From an uncultured Candidatus Saccharibacteria bacterium (GTDB taxonomy: Bacteria; Patescibacteriota; Minisyncoccia; Phycocordibacterales; PALSA-1337): DNA of 64,000 nt. The stretch is from the NCBI GenBank assembly GCA_964495685.1, contig CAZBVQ010000001.1:39477-103476 (forward strand), in the 5' to 3' direction. Shown here piece by piece: positions 3,251 to 55,333 of this stretch; position 1 is the stretch's first letter, and each line of letters opens with the position of its first letter. Below the pieces are notes generated by a model, which saw only the letters and a list, made by a program, of their open reading frames with translations, made no database searches and was not told the DNA's origin. Position numbers and translations under genes: made by a program.

Positions 3251-3559
3251 TTACTCCTCCCACCTGTCCCCGAACGGATTGATCTCCTCTCCATCCAAGC
3301 TCACCTCATCGGAGAGCTCGTCTTCTTCTGCGGAACCCAACAGGGGGTCTACTTCTGTTTTATCTTCAACTCCTACATCAGCTTCCGGCTCATCGATCTC
3401 GATCGGCTTCTTCACTTTACTAGGAATGACGTCGGTTTCCTTCTCTTCATGCTCGACCTCTTCTTCGACATGTTGCTCTTCTGTAGCCGGAGCAACCTTC
3501 TTCTTGGATTTTACTGTTTTGGGTGCAGTTTTCTTGGTGGCCGTTACCATGTTCGTCAA
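3251..3559 (-). CDS. hypothetical protein, Lys-rich N-terminus and highly acidic C-terminus
   Basis: 102-aa ORF with no recognisable domain. Compositionally biased (K-rich then E/D-rich). Confidence 0.4.
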   Translation of the reverse strand: MTNMVTATKKTAPKTVKSKKKVAPATEEQHVEEEVEHEEKETDVIPSKVKKPIEIDEPEADVGVEDKTEVDPLLGSAEEDELSDEVSLDGEEINPFGDRWEE

Positions 3560-3792
3560 TAATTAATTTCTATGCAGACAGTTGTAACAAAGATGTTGCC
3601 ATTTGGCAACAAACTTCCCCTGTGGACAACCCGCGAGCATGCGAGCGGAGCCGTCCTCGTATGAGGGCAACCCACGAGCATGTCCCCCCACAACACAATC
3701 TCCCCCTGACAAGCCGAAAATGTAGCCAGCGATCAGAGCTTTGAGGCTTGGAAGGGGTGAATTATGTTGTGGGGGTGCCTATTGATAATCCC

Positions 3793-7235: not shown

Positions 7236-8342
7236 TTACCTGTTCATTGGCATAACAAGATAGAGAAACGTCTGGTCTCCCGATACAGGCTTGATTATCA
7301 CCGGCCTATTGAGTCCGTTGAGTTGCAAACTGACACTGTCTGCGTGTATGGACTGAAACCCATCGATAAGGTATTTGTAATTGAAATTGATCTCCATTTT
7401 CTCACCAGTAAGTGCCGCATCAATATTGGTTTCATTCTCACCAATATCACTGTTTTTTGTTTGTATCTCGAACACTTTCCCTTTTGGGTCTATAGTGAGA
7501 TGAACTTGATTGAATTTGTCCGAAAAGATGTTGGATATTTTGAGCGCGTTCAGAATATCTTGCTTGAGCGCCACAACCTCAGTTGTGGCTGATTTGGGGA
7601 TGATCTGTCTATAGTCAGGAAACACTCCATCAATAACTCGGGATACGATGTACGTGTCTTCATTCTCGAACGTGATGAGGTTCTTATTTGAATTAACCGT
7701 AGCTGTATTTTGGAAGCTACCAAGTACCCGAATAATGTCTTGGGTGTTTTTGTACGGTATCAAAACGTCATGTAGTTTGTTTGTGCTTGCTGTTTTGATC
7801 TTTTTTTCTGCAAGGCGGAATGAGTCTGTGGCCACAAACGTCAGATATTCCCCGTCTTTGTATATATACACACTAGAAAGCTCTGGTTTGACGCTTGAGA
7901 TAGCGGCACTATAGAAGACCGCGGTAAGTCCCTGTATCAGGTCTTCTGGTGACATGGTGTATTTCTGACCATCTTGGATTTTTGGGATGCTTGGGAAATC
8001 TTCTGGGGGTACTGTTTTTATGACCCCTTTTGATTTTGTTGTTTTTATATGAAGATTCCCCGAAACAAGCTCAAGAATAACTGTTTGACTCTGTTCTTGC
8101 ACTTGAGACAAGAATGATGCCAGAGTTTGCGCGGGCACAGCGACAACGCCTTGAGCATCTGTTTTTGCAGGAATAGTAACCTCTACACCCACATCAAGGT
8201 TGGTCGCTTTGAGTGTAATAGTGTTTTTCCCCACTTCTATGAGGATACAAGCGAGAACTGGTAGTGTTTGGTGCTTACTCGCAACACGATCCACTAGGCC
8301 GACGGCATCTTTGAGTTTTTTGAGGTTGAGTTCGATCTTCAT
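7236..8342 (-). CDS. dnaN: DNA polymerase III beta sliding clamp
   Basis: 368 aa with a typical DnaN N-terminus (MKIELNLKKL...VLACILIEV). Adjacent to dnaA. Confidence 0.95.
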   Translation of the reverse strand: MKIELNLKKLKDAVGLVDRVASKHQTLPVLACILIEVGKNTITLKATNLDVGVEVTIPAKTDAQGVVAVPAQTLASFLSQVQEQSQTVILELVSGNLHIKTTKSKGVIKTVPPEDFPSIPKIQDGQKYTMSPEDLIQGLTAVFYSAAISSVKPELSSVYIYKDGEYLTFVATDSFRLAEKKIKTASTNKLHDVLIPYKNTQDIIRVLGSFQNTATVNSNKNLITFENEDTYIVSRVIDGVFPDYRQIIPKSATTEVVALKQDILNALKISNIFSDKFNQVHLTIDPKGKVFEIQTKNSDIGENETNIDAALTGEKMEINFNYKYLIDGFQSIHADSVSLQLNGLNRPVIIKPVSGDQTFLYLVMPMNR

Positions 8343-8572
8343 ATAAGATGTGTTTTTATTTGAATAAGCAAACCTATCATCATTAAGACTGTGGATATGT
8401 TGAAAACTTAATATATATCAACAAATCCAAAAGGTTTTATGAGAACCAACACACAGATTATATGGTAACAAGCAGGGACAACATTCTTTACTTATAACCT
8501 ATGTGTATAAAACAACAAGTTACCCACACACATATCAACGAAACCCACACGCTACCCACAGGATTATCCCCA
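8343..8572. promoter_or_regulatory. candidate oriC (dnaA-dnaN spacer), AT-rich with DnaA-box-like 9-mers
   Basis: Near-consensus boxes relative to TGTGGATAA/TTATCCACA: TGTGGATAT (8390-8398), TGTGTATAA (8502-8510), TTACCCACA (8520-8528), CTACCCACA and TTATCCCCA (8551-8573). Also AT-rich runs. Confidence 0.5.
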
Positions 8573-9940
8573 TTACAACATGGTGCGCACCTGAGCGATC
8601 TCTTGGGACAAGAGTTGATCGGTCTTCACTTCCTCTCGGACCTTCTCATACGAGTGGATAACGGTCGTATGGTCTCTACCACCCAACTTCTCCCCTATTG
8701 AAGGGAAAGATATACCGAAATCCTCCCGCAAGATATACATCACTACCTGACGAGGACGCACAACCTCCTTGCGACGGGTCTTGTTGTAAATACTGTCCTC
8801 ATCAATGTTGTAGAAGTCTGAAACAACCTTGACTACATCCTTTACGGACATCATTTTCTTTGGTTTCAGGTTGTTTTTGAGGATGTTACGGATCTCATTG
8901 AGGTTGAGCTCTCTGTTTTTGAGTTGTGTTTGGCAAGCAATAACATTGATAATACCCTCAATTTCACGGATATTGTCTTCTATAGAAGAAGCAATGTAAT
9001 CAGTCACCTCGTCCGACAAGGTGATATTGTGTGCACCACACTTGCTCCGCACGATCATAATACGAGATTCTTGGTCCGGCTCAGGTATGTCCACAATCAT
9101 ACCCATAGAGAAGCGGCCCCGGAGACGATCTTCAAGACCAGGAATGGTGTTGGGGTGCTTGTCACCAGAAAATACCAACTGACGTGAGGTGTCGTGGAAT
9201 GTATTAAAGAAGTGGAAGAGCTCCTCCTGAAACTTCTCCTTACTAGCAAAGAACTGCACATCATCCATGATAATAACGTCATATTTGCGATATTTGTCCT
9301 TGAAGGCCTGGACCCTACCCTCTTGGATAGCCGCGAAGAACTCTGAGCCGAAACGTTCAGATGTCAGATAGAACACCTTTTTGTCTGGGTGAAGCTTCTT
9401 GATTTGATTACCGACAGCTTGAATGATGTGGGTTTTGCCGCGGCCAGTTTGGCCATAGATGAAAAGGGGGTTGTATGATTGTCCGGGAGCTTTGACGACC
9501 ATCTGAGAAGCGGCATGGGCAAGTTCGTTGAAAGGGCCCACAATAAGGGTCTCGAATGTGTAGCGAGGATTGAGGTTGTCGTCTTTGTTCACATAGAAAT
9601 CTTGGAGTGGCATAGCGATTGTGGGTGCTGACACCTGTTCCTTGCGGGAGTGGCCGCCACCTTTGCCGTCTTCGCGGACAACAACGTATTCTAGAGCACG
9701 AACACGCTCATTCATCTGCCTCAAAATGCGCAAAATCGAGTTGTGGAACTTCTTCTGGAGCCATTCATGGGTGAAAGAGTTGGGCACTCCCAGATAGATG
9801 ACACCCTCATCCTCGCGGAGAATCTTGATATCTTTGAACCATGTAGAAAAGTTGGCTTGCGATACGGCACTTTCGATCTCGAGTAAAGCAGTTTGCCACA
9901 TTTTTCCGTGATCATTCATAGATAGTGAATTTAGTACCAC
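8573..9940 (-). CDS. dnaA: chromosomal replication initiator DnaA
   Basis: GQTGRGKTHIIQAVGN Walker A, the DnaA AAA+ box VII and a C-terminal DNA-binding domain. GTG start at 9940; an internal ATG is possible. Confidence 0.95.
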   Translation of the reverse strand: MVLNSLSMNDHGKMWQTALLEIESAVSQANFSTWFKDIKILREDEGVIYLGVPNSFTHEWLQKKFHNSILRILRQMNERVRALEYVVVREDGKGGGHSRKEQVSAPTIAMPLQDFYVNKDDNLNPRYTFETLIVGPFNELAHAASQMVVKAPGQSYNPLFIYGQTGRGKTHIIQAVGNQIKKLHPDKKVFYLTSERFGSEFFAAIQEGRVQAFKDKYRKYDVIIMDDVQFFASKEKFQEELFHFFNTFHDTSRQLVFSGDKHPNTIPGLEDRLRGRFSMGMIVDIPEPDQESRIMIVRSKCGAHNITLSDEVTDYIASSIEDNIREIEGIINVIACQTQLKNRELNLNEIRNILKNNLKPKKMMSVKDVVKVVSDFYNIDEDSIYNKTRRKEVVRPRQVVMYILREDFGISFPSIGEKLGGRDHTTVIHSYEKVREEVKTDQLLSQEIAQVRTML

Positions 9941-38399: not shown

Positions 38400-38890
38400 G
38401 GCAAGAAAGATTCGGCAGGCAAAAGAAAAGCCGCATCGTTGCGACCTCTAGAAAGGTGAAATCGCATTGATGCGGCACGAACTAGAGGAGCGACGAAGAG
38501 AAAGAGCTTGTGGGTCTAACTGACCCGTTCAGACCTTATCGGTCTGGTGCGTCCAAATGGTTCCTAAGTTAACGGTGTGCACTGTGATCTAAAAGATGAG
38601 TGCTTTCCCGAAGGAAGCGTAGTTGTGTTTGAGAACAAGTACACCGCCATATGACTTAGCAGCTAAAGGTCGCAGAAAAGTTCTTCGTACTCCTATGAGT
38701 GTGAAGCCTACCCTGCTTTTTGAAAGAACCAACTGTTTGTTTGGATCGCAGAAAAATAGTACCGAACCGCGAGCACTATCTCATATATCAAGATTGTGCA
38801 ATTATTTTTTTCCGTACTATTTTTCTGCGATCACCTCGGACAACAAACTGAATCTGGAGTTATTATATGTCCTTTAAAAATGTCTGTAAA
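38400..38890. other. long structured noncoding region, candidate unassigned ncRNA
   Basis: No credible ORF. Many local hairpins (CCTCTAG...CTAGAGG enclosing CGCAT..ATGCG; GGGTC..GACCC; CAGACC..GGTCTG; GCTTTCC-CGAA-GGAAGC). Adjacent to cca and tRNAs. Confidence 0.25.
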
Positions 38891-38904
38891 GGACATCGCT
38901 GTGG

Positions 38905-38983
38905 ATAACCCGCGAACGAAGTGAGCGGAGCAATACCCTCCAATGGGTATAACCCGCGAACGAAGTGAGCGGAGCAATACCCT
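38905..38983. repeat. tandem direct repeat, 2 x 35 nt (ATAACCCGCGAACGAAGTGAGCGGAGCAATACCCT), period 44 nt
   Basis: Exact copies at 38905-38939 and 38949-38983. The first is preceded by a perfect DnaA-box TGTGGATAA (38900-38908). Related copy at 3621-3651. Confidence 0.9.
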
Positions 38984-39026
38984 GTATAGGTATAGCTAAA
39001 AGACATTTCAAAATCTCCTCGAGAAA

Positions 39027-40900: not shown

Positions 40901-41221
40901 CAGAAATTCCCCTTCATAAAAATAAATAGTCGCCGAATAGGCGTATTTGTGCTACGTGCACCTGAAATAACTGTCTTATTAACACTTTTCCCCTGTCTTT
41001 TTATCCAAAAACATAAAATATGGCTTAAAACCGTAGAGCTAACAGACAAACTGTGGATAAGTCTGTGAGTAACGGGCATAAAAGACACAAAAAATGGCTT
41101 ATTTTCGTAGAAATGGCCTAAAATCATGTTCTTTTGGGGTTACCGATCCGATAAAGCTATATTTGTAGCCATATATTAACGCACTGGTTTTAAAAGTCAG
41201 GACAAATATGTTGTCATAATT

Positions 41222-51757: not shown

Positions 51758-52498
51758 ATGGATCAAATCAGTAGCTCTCTGAATAATATTGGGCTTTCGG
51801 ACAAGGAGTCCAAGATATATGTCACACTTCTCAAGCTGGGGGAAGCTACTGTGGCAGAAATTTCCACGGAAGCTGGTATAAAGAGGCCAACAGCTTACAT
51901 AATTCTTGATGAATTGAGGAAAAAGGGGATAGCGCTGAAAATACCTCATCCTAAAAAGATTGTATATCAGGCAAAACCGCCTAACGAGCTTTTTGAACGC
52001 GCTAAGGAAAACTTAAACGAATTTCAGCGATTATTGCCGAAAATTAATGCCATTTCTGTCCAAAAAAAATCTATTAAGACCCTATATTTTGAAGGCTTTC
52101 AGGGTGTAAAAGATGCATTATTTTACAGAATGAACGAATTGAAAGGTGAAACTGTCTCGGGTTTTTGGGCAAAAAACAGTGGCATTGAGAAGGATGTATT
52201 TGGTCTTCTTGATAAATGGGGAAAGCAATATTTGAAAAATAATATAACTATCGCGGGTATAACTCCTGATCACGAATCAATTCGTGATCTACGATTAAAG
52301 TATCCGGAGGAATATAAGAAAATTGTGCCCGTCTCAGAAGCAGAATATTCCTCAGATATTTCCATTGATGTGGTTAAGGATTTTGTGAGGATAATTGATC
52401 CACATAGTTTGAAAGCTATAATCATAGAAAACGATCGTGTTGCGCGTGCATTAAAACAGATATTTACAATTGTTGAGAAGAAATACGGTATCTCATGA
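51758..52498 (+). CDS. TrmB-family transcriptional regulator, paralog 2
   Basis: wHTH: IGLSDKESKIYVTLLKLGEATVAEISTEAGIKRPTAYIILDELRKKGIA. Confidence 0.7.
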   Translation: MDQISSSLNNIGLSDKESKIYVTLLKLGEATVAEISTEAGIKRPTAYIILDELRKKGIALKIPHPKKIVYQAKPPNELFERAKENLNEFQRLLPKINAISVQKKSIKTLYFEGFQGVKDALFYRMNELKGETVSGFWAKNSGIEKDVFGLLDKWGKQYLKNNITIAGITPDHESIRDLRLKYPEEYKKIVPVSEAEYSSDISIDVVKDFVRIIDPHSLKAIIIENDRVARALKQIFTIVEKKYGIS

Positions 52499-52815: not shown

Positions 52816-52850
52816 AAAAGGCTCGGTTCAATCCCGGGCCTTTGTCATTT
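52816..52850. terminator. 35-nt bidirectional terminator element, copy 1 (AAAAGGCTCGGTTCAATCCCGGGCCTTTGTCATTT)
   Basis: 10-bp GC-rich stem with an A-run and a T-run. Overlaps the 3' end of TrmB paralog 3. Identical copy at 55299-55333. Confidence 0.6.
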
Positions 52851-55298: not shown

Positions 55299-55333
55299 AA
55301 AAGGCTCGGTTCAATCCCGGGCCTTTGTCATTT
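55299..55333. terminator. 35-nt bidirectional terminator element, copy 2
   Basis: Identical to 52816-52850. Overlaps the 3' end of TrmB paralog 4 in a different reading frame. Confidence 0.6.

What the first reader, a model, noticed from the sequence alone, without database searches (positions are those of the whole stretch)
38900..38983. Dispersed repeat family starting with a perfect DnaA box (TGTGGAYAACCCGCGARC...GAGCGGAGC): tandem pair at 38.9 kb and a related copy at 3.62 kb
Two exact 35-nt copies (38905-38939, 38949-38983) sit downstream of cca. The first is preceded by a perfect TGTGGATAA.

A related copy, TGTGGACAACCCGCGAGCATGCGAGCGGAGC, lies at 3621-3651 in the ruvC/yebC intergenic region, with a degenerate second unit (GCAACCCACGAGCATG at 3667-3683). 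Another perfect TGTGGATAA occurs at 41052-41060.

This looks like a small intergenic repeat family (REP-like or protein-binding), possibly DnaA-titrating or otherwise regulatory. It is not a CRISPR: there are only two units with a 9-nt gap.
Basis: seen in the sequence. Interest (0 to 1): 0.5.

Follow-up and report, generated by a model that had tools for sequence, protein, structure and literature searches.

The report
Mobile hairpin repeat beside DnaA boxes
The repeats are copies of a 41-44-base, two-hairpin mobile DNA element found in many ultra-small (Patescibacteria/CPR) bacterial genomes; here it sits next to two older, conserved DnaA-box motifs, and in other species the same element lies in-frame inside essential genes.

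Summary
There is an exact tandem pair at 38907-38996, a related copy at 3628-3668, and a truncated unit at 3669-3682.

It is not a local duplication. The core AACCCGCGARC-N3-6-GAGCGGAGC occurs in 67 eight-kb tiles from about 23 Patescibacteria MAGs, often as head-to-tail pairs exactly 42 nt apart. Each unit folds into two hairpins. H1 is conserved in sequence. H2 is conserved only in structure, with 5 of its 6 pairs covarying.

In Azambacteria and other MAGs the units lie in-frame inside conserved genes such as ComM, RarA, ArgRS and an Mfd-like gene. Orthologues lack them by exact 14-codon multiples, as with Rickettsia palindromic elements.

The 'perfect DnaA box' is not part of the repeat. 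Relatives without the element keep TGTGGATAA(C/T) at both orthologous sites, upstream of minus-strand promoters. The element was inserted on the promoter-distal side of a pre-existing box.

The left flank resembles the element's own 3' end. This suggests site-specific insertion, and re-insertion at the regenerated target would explain the tandems. An IS200/IS605-like enzyme is inferred, but none was found.

DnaA titration is not supported. I found no published description of this REP/RPE-like family in CPR, so I rate it a new member of a known kind.

The parts
38900..38909 (.). TGTGGATAAC: DnaA-box-like decamer (GTTATCCACA on the minus strand). It is a pre-existing flank and the apparent insertion target of locus A. 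Its last 3 nt overlap the AAC with which unit A1 is conventionally started.
   Evidence: The box is present at the same position in L079, L093/L104, L103 and L101, and as TGGGGATAAC in L092; five of these contigs (four lineages) have no element. It lies about 10 nt upstream of the -35 of a minus-strand promoter-like site.
38907..38950 (+). Unit A1 (44 nt). H1 is CCGC(38910-13)-GA-AC-GAA-GT-GA-GCGG(38925-28). H2 is ATACCC(38933-38)-TCCAAT-GGGTAT(38945-50).
   Evidence: 49.9 bits, E = 8e-15; two-hairpin DNA fold, z = -2.5.
38951..38996 (+). Unit A2. Its core is identical to A1. H2 is ATACC-CTGTATA-GGTAT, and the unit ends ...TAGC instead of ...TAAC.
   Evidence: (23.7 bits, E = 4e-06).
3621..3630 (.). 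TGTGGACAAC: DnaA-box-like decamer with one mismatch. It is the pre-existing flank and apparent target of locus B.
   Evidence: Five relatives without the element carry TGTGGATAAT or TGGGGATAAC at the aligned position.
3628..3668 (+). Unit B1 (41 nt). H1 is CCGC-GA-GC-AT-GC-GA-GCGG. H2 is GTCCTC-GTAT-GAGGGC.
   Evidence: (66.1 bits, E = 3e-20).
3669..3682 (+). Truncated unit B2 (AACCCACGAGCATG). Only the 5' half of H1 remains.

Best explanation
The repeats are copies of a small, non-autonomous mobile DNA element, similar in kind to REP and RPE elements, that is specific to Patescibacteria (CPR).

The unit is 41-44 nt and has two hairpins:
- H1 (CCGC-GA-RC-loop-GY-GA-GCGG) is conserved in sequence and is presumably the recognition module.
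- H2 is a 6-bp stem, usually with a GTAT loop. Its sequence varies between subfamilies but stays paired.
- The unit ends in ...AA(C).

The element inserts immediately 3' of a short sequence that resembles its own 3' end. For the abundant family this is ...GACGGCAA. For the subfamily in this window it is ...TGTGGAYAA, which is a DnaA box. Each insertion recreates the preferred target at its 3' end, so a second insertion there would give head-to-tail tandems.

In this genome both arrays lie in neutral DNA, between the end of an upstream gene (cca, ruvC) and a conserved DnaA box. That box sits upstream of a minus-strand promoter, for a candidate ~430-nt ncRNA at locus A and a 102-aa ORF at locus B. 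Both insertions are on the promoter-distal side of the box.

In other lineages the 42-nt (14-codon) unit has invaded coding sequences and is read through.

Shown: family membership, the two-hairpin structure, the insertion polymorphism, the pre-existing box, and in-frame genic copies.

Inferred: the enzyme. It is most likely a single-strand-DNA, HUH/Y1-type or otherwise site-specific activity acting in trans, as for IS200/IS605 and REP/RAYT. The re-insertion origin of tandems is also inferred.
For: Distribution. The core pattern hits 84 eight-kb tiles. Of these, 67 come from Patescibacteria MAGs such as Azam-, Taylor-, Vogel-, Giovannoni-, Zambryski-, Lipton- and Staskawiczbacteria and Paceibacterota. 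Many hits are pairs exactly 42 nt apart. The 17 non-CPR hits lack H2 and match my own rough estimate of the number of chance matches.

Structure. On 61 distinct units, 88.9% of cells pair against 81.4% in shuffles. Eight of 12 pairs change on both sides, and 0 of 500 shuffles reach the observed covariation. Slid controls pair only 20-49% of cells. RNAalifold independently finds both helices.

Insertion polymorphism.
- Locus A: the window has 2 units and L079 has 1. L092, which is about 94% identical to L079 in cca, has none, nor do L093/L104, L103 and L101. All keep the same flanks and all keep TGTGGATAAC (TGGGGATAAC in L092).
- Locus B: five relatives with RuvC 77-87% identical lack the element but keep the box.

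Target mimicry. In first or single copies the flank is GGC at -3..-1 in 55-71 of 73, with weaker ATGAC further upstream. The left flank matches that copy's own H2 3' arm better than permuted pairings do: 306 against 274.5 +/- 4.5. Six distinct loci of the window's subfamily all have CTGTGGAY at the left flank.

Genic copies. Alignments with orthologues show exact 14-aa or multiple insertions. Among 39 genic arrays, none lies in the one frame that carries a stop; for the 31 sense-oriented arrays, 3.8 were expected from GGCAA availability.
Against: No transposase or other dedicated enzyme was found. An approximate IS200 TnpA probe found nothing in about 0.7 Mb of flanking DNA. One hit in viral contigs lacks H2 and is a chance match.

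The two hairpins are unlike each other, whereas IS200/IS605 ends resemble one another. No guide tetranucleotide could be identified.

A direct repeat of up to 7 nt (GGATAAC in L079) is also compatible with a target-site duplication, or with microhomology-mediated events.

Folding energy shows no strand asymmetry.

Only three copies are seen in this 64-kb window, so activity in this genome is not shown.

Copies used in the statistics are not phylogenetically independent.
Confidence: 0.75

Rival explanations
1. The repeats are a DnaA-binding or DnaA-titrating regulatory repeat, with the DnaA box as the functional head of each repeat.
For: A perfect TGTGGATAA abuts the first unit at 38900, and a one-mismatch box at 3621. 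The box is conserved in relatives and its extended form GTTATCCACAG matches strong E. coli boxes; the E. coli comparison is from my own knowledge. The genome encodes DnaA.
Against: The box is present in relatives that have no repeat, at both loci. Second units lack it. The abundant family has ATGACGGC at that position. There is one box per locus, whereas the clustered boxes are in the dnaA-dnaN spacer. One-mismatch boxes are not enriched in the window: 23 against 16.4 +/- 3.9.
Confidence: 0.05
2. The unit is a structured cis-acting RNA motif, such as a transcript stabiliser, terminator or protein-binding site, kept because it functions in RNA.
For: There are two hairpins with compensatory changes. 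The commonest pair at one H2 position is U-G (41 of 61). H1 has possible tandem G-A pairs. REPs are known to act as RNA elements (PMC3733652).
Against: In the window both arrays are antisense to the flanking genes and lie beyond the cca terminator-like hairpin. Copies occur in both orientations and in four reading frames inside unrelated genes. Close relatives differ in presence or absence. There is no Rfam match and no strand asymmetry in folding.
Confidence: 0.1
3. The pattern is explained by local duplication or replication slippage only, with a chance similarity between the two window loci.
For: There are only two loci in 64 kb, and both are tandem.
Against: The same 42-nt unit is found in about 23 other genomes. 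The two window loci share the core but differ in H1 loop and H2 arms, as separate subfamily members do.
Confidence: 0.01
4. The genic copies are intervening sequences removed after transcription (mini-introns) or skipped by ribosome hopping between the GGC codons at each end. The intergenic copies in the window would then be the same element in a neutral place.
For: GGC flanks both ends of the unit. The unit is strongly structured. The byp elements of yeast mitochondria provide a precedent for hopping (own knowledge).
Against: All genic units are 42 nt or 108 nt, both multiples of 3. None lies in the stop-containing frame, against 3.8 expected. There is no stop after the putative take-off codon. 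Antisense genic copies also keep open frames.
Confidence: 0.05

Closest known systems
REP / BIME / REPIN elements mobilised by RAYT (TnpA-REP) Y1 transposases
   Same: Both are short, hairpin-forming, high-copy, non-coding repeats, mostly intergenic and downstream of genes. Within-genome copies are nearly identical. REPs are occasionally intragenic (PMC3733652, PMC6006769).
   Different: REPs are single palindromes with a GTAG/GTGG or CGTC tag at the foot. They typically occur as inverted dimers, and head-to-tail dimers are described as negligible (PMC3733652). Here the unit has two unlike hairpins and no conserved tag, arrays are strictly head-to-tail with a 42-nt period, and no RAYT was seen.
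Rickettsia palindromic elements (RPE; Ogata et al. 2000, cited in PMC3733652)
   Same: Both are selfish palindromic repeats inserted in-frame in unrelated, apparently functional protein genes, and also found in intergenic DNA. No transposase is known for either.
   Different: RPEs are longer and restricted to Rickettsia; RPE-1 is about 100-150 bp (own knowledge). I did not compare sequences. The CPR unit is 42 nt, forms tandems, and shows a defined target that mimics its own 3' end.
IS200/IS605 ends and their miniature derivatives (PATEs)
   Same: Both are asymmetric elements without terminal inverted repeats and with subterminal hairpins. IS200/IS605 elements insert 3' of a short specific target, and the target and the right end are read by the same mechanism (PMC6006769). 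This resembles the flank/3'-end mimicry seen here.
   Different: The target appears longer here, about 5-10 nt. H1 and H2 are not similar to each other. No guide tetranucleotide was identified and no TnpA was found. Bias toward the lagging strand was not testable.
Mycobacterial interspersed repetitive units (MIRU; own knowledge)
   Same: Both are 40-100-nt units in direct tandem arrays between genes of small intergenic regions, with lengths compatible with reading frames.
   Different: MIRUs are minisatellites within operons and are not known to have two covarying hairpins or to be inserted inside conserved ORFs.
DnaA-box clusters (oriC, datA, DARS)
   Same: The window loci carry a perfect or near-perfect 9-mer box.
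   Different: There is a single box per locus, it predates the repeat, and the repeat units themselves carry no box.

Membership tests
REP/REPIN (RAYT-associated) | Single imperfect palindrome with a conserved GTAG/GTGG (or CGTC) tetranucleotide at the hairpin foot | tested here: not met
   The unit has two different hairpins. No conserved tag is present: CGTC occurs inside the H2 stem of the main family only and is replaced by GGTC, AGTC, CCTC or ACCC in other subfamilies.
REP/REPIN (RAYT-associated) | Predominantly inverted (head-to-head or tail-to-tail) dimers | tested here: not met
   All 12 or more pairs are head-to-tail with a 42-nt period. In the window the periods are 44 and 41 nt.
REP/REPIN (RAYT-associated) | A RAYT (Y1 HUH) gene in the genome, usually flanked by REPs | tested here: inconclusive
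   tblastn with an approximate IS200 TnpA sequence written from memory found nothing at E < 1 in about 0.7 Mb of loci plus the window. Whole genomes were not available.
Rickettsia palindromic elements (RPE-like selfish DNA in genes) | In-frame insertion into unrelated conserved ORFs, absent from orthologues | tested here: met
   ComM, RarA-like, ArgRS, an Mfd-like gene and others carry 14-aa or multiple inserts that orthologues lack. No array uses the stop-containing frame. This is met in other MAGs; the window copies are intergenic.
Rickettsia palindromic elements (RPE-like selfish DNA in genes) | Sequence or length relationship to RPE families | not tested
   No RPE sequences were available. 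Sizes differ: 42 nt against about 100-150 nt for RPE-1 (own knowledge).
MITE | Terminal inverted repeats and a fixed-length target-site duplication | tested here: not met
   The ends (AACCCGCG... and ...GACGGCAA) are not inverted repeats. The flanking direct repeat varies from about 3 to 7 nt.
IS200/IS605-type (PATE-like) element | No TIRs; subterminal hairpins; insertion 3' of a specific short target that is related to the right-end cleavage site | tested here: inconclusive
   There are hairpins near both ends. Empty and filled sites place the insertion directly 3' of ...ATAA(C). The flank resembles the element's own 3' end. However, the same data also fit a short target-site duplication.
IS200/IS605-type (PATE-like) element | Orientation bias relative to replication (lagging-strand template) | not testable with these tools
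   Only 8-kb tiles of MAG contigs were available. The two window loci lie on opposite sides of the GC-skew minimum but in the same orientation, and n = 2.
CRISPR array | Three or more repeats separated by unique spacers of similar length | tested here: not met
   Units abut directly with no spacers.
DnaA-titration or oriC-type box cluster | Several DnaA boxes clustered within a few hundred nt | tested here: not met
   There is one box at each locus. The cluster is at 8390-8653, next to dnaA and dnaN.
Any Rfam family | Covariance-model match | tested here: not met
   Nothing beyond tRNAs at gathering score. Nothing credible at E <= 10 around either locus.

The most novel reading that the evidence does not exclude
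The element's target may be specified by its own variable H2 arm and 3' end. Subfamilies with different H2 sequences would then home to different sites: GACGGCAA inside genes, TGTGGATAA DnaA boxes between genes. This would be a re-programmable, sequence-matched insertion mechanism run by an as yet unidentified single-strand-DNA enzyme of CPR bacteria, with one subfamily using DnaA boxes as safe havens.
Probability: 0.2. Interest if true: 0.75.

Novelty: new member of a known kind. Interest (0 to 1): 0.55.

Why it matters
CPR/Patescibacteria genomes are regarded as extremely streamlined. A 42-nt selfish element present at roughly one array per 6-8 kb in the best-sampled contig, and tolerated inside genes such as an Mfd-like gene, ComM, RarA and ArgRS, runs against that expectation.

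It gives a second, phylogenetically remote example of the Rickettsia-type 'selfish DNA in protein-coding genes' phenomenon.

The clean empty and filled sites and the target mimicry make the insertion mechanism directly testable. The adjacency to conserved DnaA boxes also points to probable DnaA-regulated promoters in these organisms.

Practically, the repeat breaks short-read assemblies: three Logan contigs end inside it. It also inflates predicted proteins by 14-aa blocks.

Tried and rejected
- Rfam, at gathering score and at E <= 10, on both loci and on orthologous contigs: nothing beyond tRNAs and one sub-threshold Hammerhead_3 match in L093.
- Viral contigs: one hit, which lacks H2 and is a chance match.
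- CRISPR: rejected because there are no spacers.
- Integron attC: rejected by inspection. There is no R''/R' (RYYYAAC/GTTRRRY) pair.
- Self-cleaving ribozymes and group II domain V: considered from memory. No conserved cores are present and there is no Rfam hit.
- IS200-like transposase in the flanks: none found, using an approximate probe.
- Peptide search with three tandem NPRTQRAEQSSYDG units: only 110 candidates and one significant protein. In-gene copies therefore appear confined to a few MAGs, or the short query is too weak.
- Strand asymmetry of folding: not significant, -12.16 against -11.81 kcal/mol, p = 0.14.
- Literature searches on CPR with repeat, palindromic-element, MITE and RAYT terms, and on literal sequence strings: nothing relevant.
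- 'AACCGCGAGCAC' at 38763-38774 as a relic copy: rejected. A 9-mer match is expected about 0.5 times by chance and it is not conserved in L079.

Full report
**1. Observation**

- At 38.9 kb two units share 35 identical bases. They extend to 40 nt at 95% identity with a 44-nt period.
- The first unit is preceded by TGTGGATAA at 38900-38908.
- At 3.6 kb there is TGTGGACAACCCGCGAGCATGCGAGCGGAGC. A truncated second unit follows 41 nt later.

This is more than chance. The 24-nt core has no match in shuffled sequence. A covariance model built later from the family (R1) finds only these copies in the 64 kb, at E = 3e-20, 8e-15 and 4e-06; the next best hit has E = 1.2.

The window is 100% identical to a 521,699-bp ENA metagenome contig. 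Its gene content is typical of a small CPR genome: ruvB, yebC, ruvC, a PBP, xerC-like, xth, cca and tRNAs. Its closest named relative among the fetched loci is a 'Candidatus Paceibacterota' MAG, with CCA 79.7% identical.

**2. It is a family, and a widespread one**

I scanned one genome per species with AACCCGCGARC-N3-6-GAGCGGAGC. This returned 84 eight-kb tiles.
- 67 tiles come from about 23 Patescibacteria MAGs produced by independent studies. These include Azambacteria JACQDT01 (19 tiles), CAYIVQ01 (23 tiles), Taylor-, Vogel-, Giovannoni-, Zambryski-, Lipton- and Staskawiczbacteria, and Paceibacterota.
- The other 17 tiles are GC-rich non-CPR genomes in which the downstream hairpin is missing. 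That is about the number my own rough estimate gives for chance matches.
- Pairs of hits are exactly 42 nt apart in every case.

Lining up all copies gives the unit: [GGC]AACCCGCGAAC-N5-GAGCGGAGC-A-GTCGTC-GTAT-GACGGC[AA].

A 108-nt variant carries an extra 66-nt hairpin module between the two halves.

IMG/VR viral contigs hold only one match, which lacks H2 and is a chance match. Rfam has nothing. Full-text searches found no description of the element.

**3. Structure**

I tested a two-hairpin model on 61 distinct units (alignment A2).
- 88.9% of cells pair, against 81.4 +/- 0.5% in shuffles.
- Eight of 12 pairs show changes on both sides.
- The covariation score is 0.239 against 0.115, reached by 0 of 500 shuffles.
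- Sliding the partners by 1-3 columns drops pairing to 20-49%.
- RNAalifold finds the outer pairs of both helices on its own.

H2 is conserved only as a structure. Examples are GTCGTC/GACGGC, GTCACC/GATGGC, ATGGTC/GACCAT, ATCCTC/GAGGAT, and in the window ATACCC/GGGTAT and GTCCTC/GAGGGC.

H1 is conserved in sequence, with rare compensatory changes: C-G to U-A at two positions, and A-U or G-C at the R-Y pair.

The window units fold in the same way as single-stranded DNA. There is no significant difference in stability between the two strands. I therefore cannot say from folding alone which strand, or whether DNA or RNA, is the relevant form.

**4. In other genomes the unit sits inside genes**

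Many copies lie within long ORFs. Alignment with orthologues, including window proteins, shows clean insertions.
- A ComM-like protein of Azambacteria has ...DS[NPRTQRAEQSPYDG]VS..., where the window orthologue has a gap.
- A RarA-like ATPase has GEG[NPRTERAEQSSYDG]KPLR.
- A membrane protein carries two units.
- ArgRS carries two antisense units.
- One reading frame with an Mfd-like sequence (assigned by inspection) carries four copies.

Among 39 arrays with at least 60 open codons on both sides, the frames used were +0 (24), +1 (7), -0 (3) and -1 (5). None used the only frame that contains a stop.

The target pentamer GGCAA occurs in host ORFs at 440:237:95 across the three sense frames. This explains the order +0 > +1. 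It predicts 3.8 insertions in the stop frame, against 0 observed (p about 0.02).

The 31:8 excess of sense orientation is not explained by target availability (772 sense against 658 antisense).

The units therefore appear to be translated through, as in Rickettsia RPEs (PMC3733652 and references therein). A peptide search found few such proteins, so the genic invasion seems limited to a few lineages.

**5. The DnaA box is the neighbour, not the head, of the repeat**

I searched metagenomes for the 19-nt flank just left of the 38.9-kb pair. This returned 14 contigs; five of them are orthologous to locus A and syntenic with cca.

All lineages keep ...AAATGTCTGTAAAGGACAT-(2-3 nt)-TGTGGATAAC; L092 has TGGGGATAAC. 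They differ in what follows:

| Contig | Units after the box |
|---|---|
| Window | 2 |
| L079 | 1, with a different H1 loop and different H2 arms |
| L092 (about 94% identical to L079 in cca) | 0 |
| L093/L104 | 0 |
| L103 | 0 |
| L101 | 0 |

In the contigs without units, the sequence continues directly into the DNA downstream of cca.

In L079 the insert is 41 nt and is bounded by the direct repeat GGATAAC.

The window lineage is about equally distant (CCA about 80% identical) from L079/L092, L093 and L103. Two independent insertions at the same site are therefore more parsimonious than one gain and several precise losses.

I repeated the test at the second locus. Five relatives found through RuvC (77-87% identical) have the same ruvC-small ORF-yebC synteny. 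Each has a conserved TGTGGATAAT or TGGGGATAAC at the aligned position, and none has the element. One of them, L107, has CCGCGAAC directly after the box, which may be a relic.

In both window loci the box lies upstream of a minus-strand promoter-like region, and the element is on the far side of the box.

The genome has dnaA and dnaN at 7.2-9.9 kb. Degenerate boxes cluster in the spacer between them, and the GC-skew minimum is nearby. That spacer, not the repeat, is where boxes cluster.

**6. Target choice and mechanism**

For first or single copies of the main family, the three bases before AAC are GGC in 55-71 of 73 cases. A weaker ATGAC lies further upstream. The flank therefore resembles the element's own 3' end, ATGACGGC.

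Copy by copy, the 6-nt left flank matches that copy's own H2 3' arm more often than permuted pairings do: 306 against 274.5 +/- 4.5 of 468 positions. A caveat is that the copies are not independent.

Six different loci of the window's subfamily, in six genomes, all start after CTGTGGAY. Their 3' ends read ...ATAAC or ...GCAAC.

The simplest reading has three steps:
- An activity recognises the conserved H1 module.
- It joins the element 3' of a site that looks like the element's right end.
- Each insertion recreates that site, so re-insertion would give head-to-tail tandems of fixed period.

This logic parallels IS200/IS605 and REP/RAYT. In those systems a Y1 HUH enzyme binds subterminal hairpins and reads both the target and the right end through base interactions (PMC6006769).

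The limits of this inference:
- No such enzyme was found.
- The two hairpins are unlike each other.
- A short target-site duplication cannot be excluded.
- The enzyme step is therefore inference only.

**7. Comparison and verdict**

The element behaves like REP and RPE elements but fails the defining tests of REP/REPIN:
- It has no GTAG or CGTC tag.
- Its dimers are head-to-tail, not inverted.
- No RAYT was seen.

It also fails the tests for MITEs, which require terminal inverted repeats.

It shares the in-frame genic habit of RPEs. It is compatible with, but not shown to be, an IS200/IS605-type miniature.

I rate it a new member of the known kind 'short structured non-autonomous repeats'. I found no prior description of it for CPR.

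- The 'REP-like family' reading is supported.
- The reading that the family 'starts with a DnaA box' or is 'DnaA-titrating' is not supported.
- The box itself is real, conserved, and probably a regulatory DnaA site of the adjacent promoters.

Noticed in passing
window 38420-38860, minus strand: Candidate ~430-nt structured ncRNA between xth and the repeat pair. It has a promoter-like TTTACA-17-TATAAT at 38890..38862 embedded in a 10-bp hairpin, and a terminator-like hairpin plus T run at 38449..38426. It is conserved in five related contigs. RNAalifold on 5 sequences gives 78 pairs, 19 of them with compensatory changes. No Rfam family matches. A perfect DnaA box sits about 10 nt upstream of its -35.
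   Followed up: partly
window 7236-9940 and 8343-8572: dnaN (7236-8342, minus strand) and dnaA (8573-9940, minus strand) were identified by Pfam. Their spacer holds four one-mismatch DnaA boxes, with a fifth at 8653 just inside dnaA. The cumulative GC-skew minimum is at about 10-12 kb. This is the probable oriC.
   Followed up: partly
window 3251-3559 (minus strand) and 3570-3620: A small 102-aa acidic ORF with no Pfam match. It is conserved in position (95-99 aa) between ruvC and yebC in relatives. Its upstream region is highly conserved and contains the hairpin TGTTGCCATTTGGCAACA and the DnaA-like box.
   Followed up: partly
window 3685-3775: A 36-nt imperfect inverted repeat, 78% complementary with arms 19 nt apart, lies just after the ruvC stop and next to the truncated unit. 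It is absent from the five relatives, so it is a second lineage-specific insertion at this spot.
   Followed up: no
window 52816-52850 and 55299-55333: An exact 35-nt direct repeat, AAAAGGCTCGGTTCAATCCCGGGCCTTTGTCATTT, with copies 2,483 nt apart. It looks like the T-arm and 3' end of a tRNA, so these may be att sites bracketing a small integrated element. Three DnaA-like boxes lie nearby at 52369-52404.
   Followed up: no
L019:4513-4632, L049:6768-6887, L076, L089, L041, L012, L074; also L066:255-300: A 108-nt long form of the element carries a 66-nt hairpin module (CACGACTCGG...CTGTTTGTAACCAATCGC...ACAAACAGGGAGC) inserted after GGAGC and itself ending in GGGAGC. This shows the same 'target resembles own 3' end' pattern. 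Part of the module also occurs next to inverted units in L066.
   Followed up: partly
L107 (CAYYQM010000024.1), ruvC-small ORF spacer: GGGGATAA-CCGCGAAC-ATAATTT: the first 8 nt of the element directly follow the box, in a contig that otherwise lacks the element. This may be a deletion relic.
   Followed up: no
L003-L005 (Logan contigs): Three independent short-read contigs carrying the identical cca gene all end at window position 38954, inside the second unit. The repeat appears to break de Bruijn-graph assemblies.
   Followed up: no
L093:8024-8099: A sub-threshold Hammerhead_3 match (34.8 bits against a gathering score of 48.5, E = 5e-4) in a related Paceibacteria contig.
   Followed up: no
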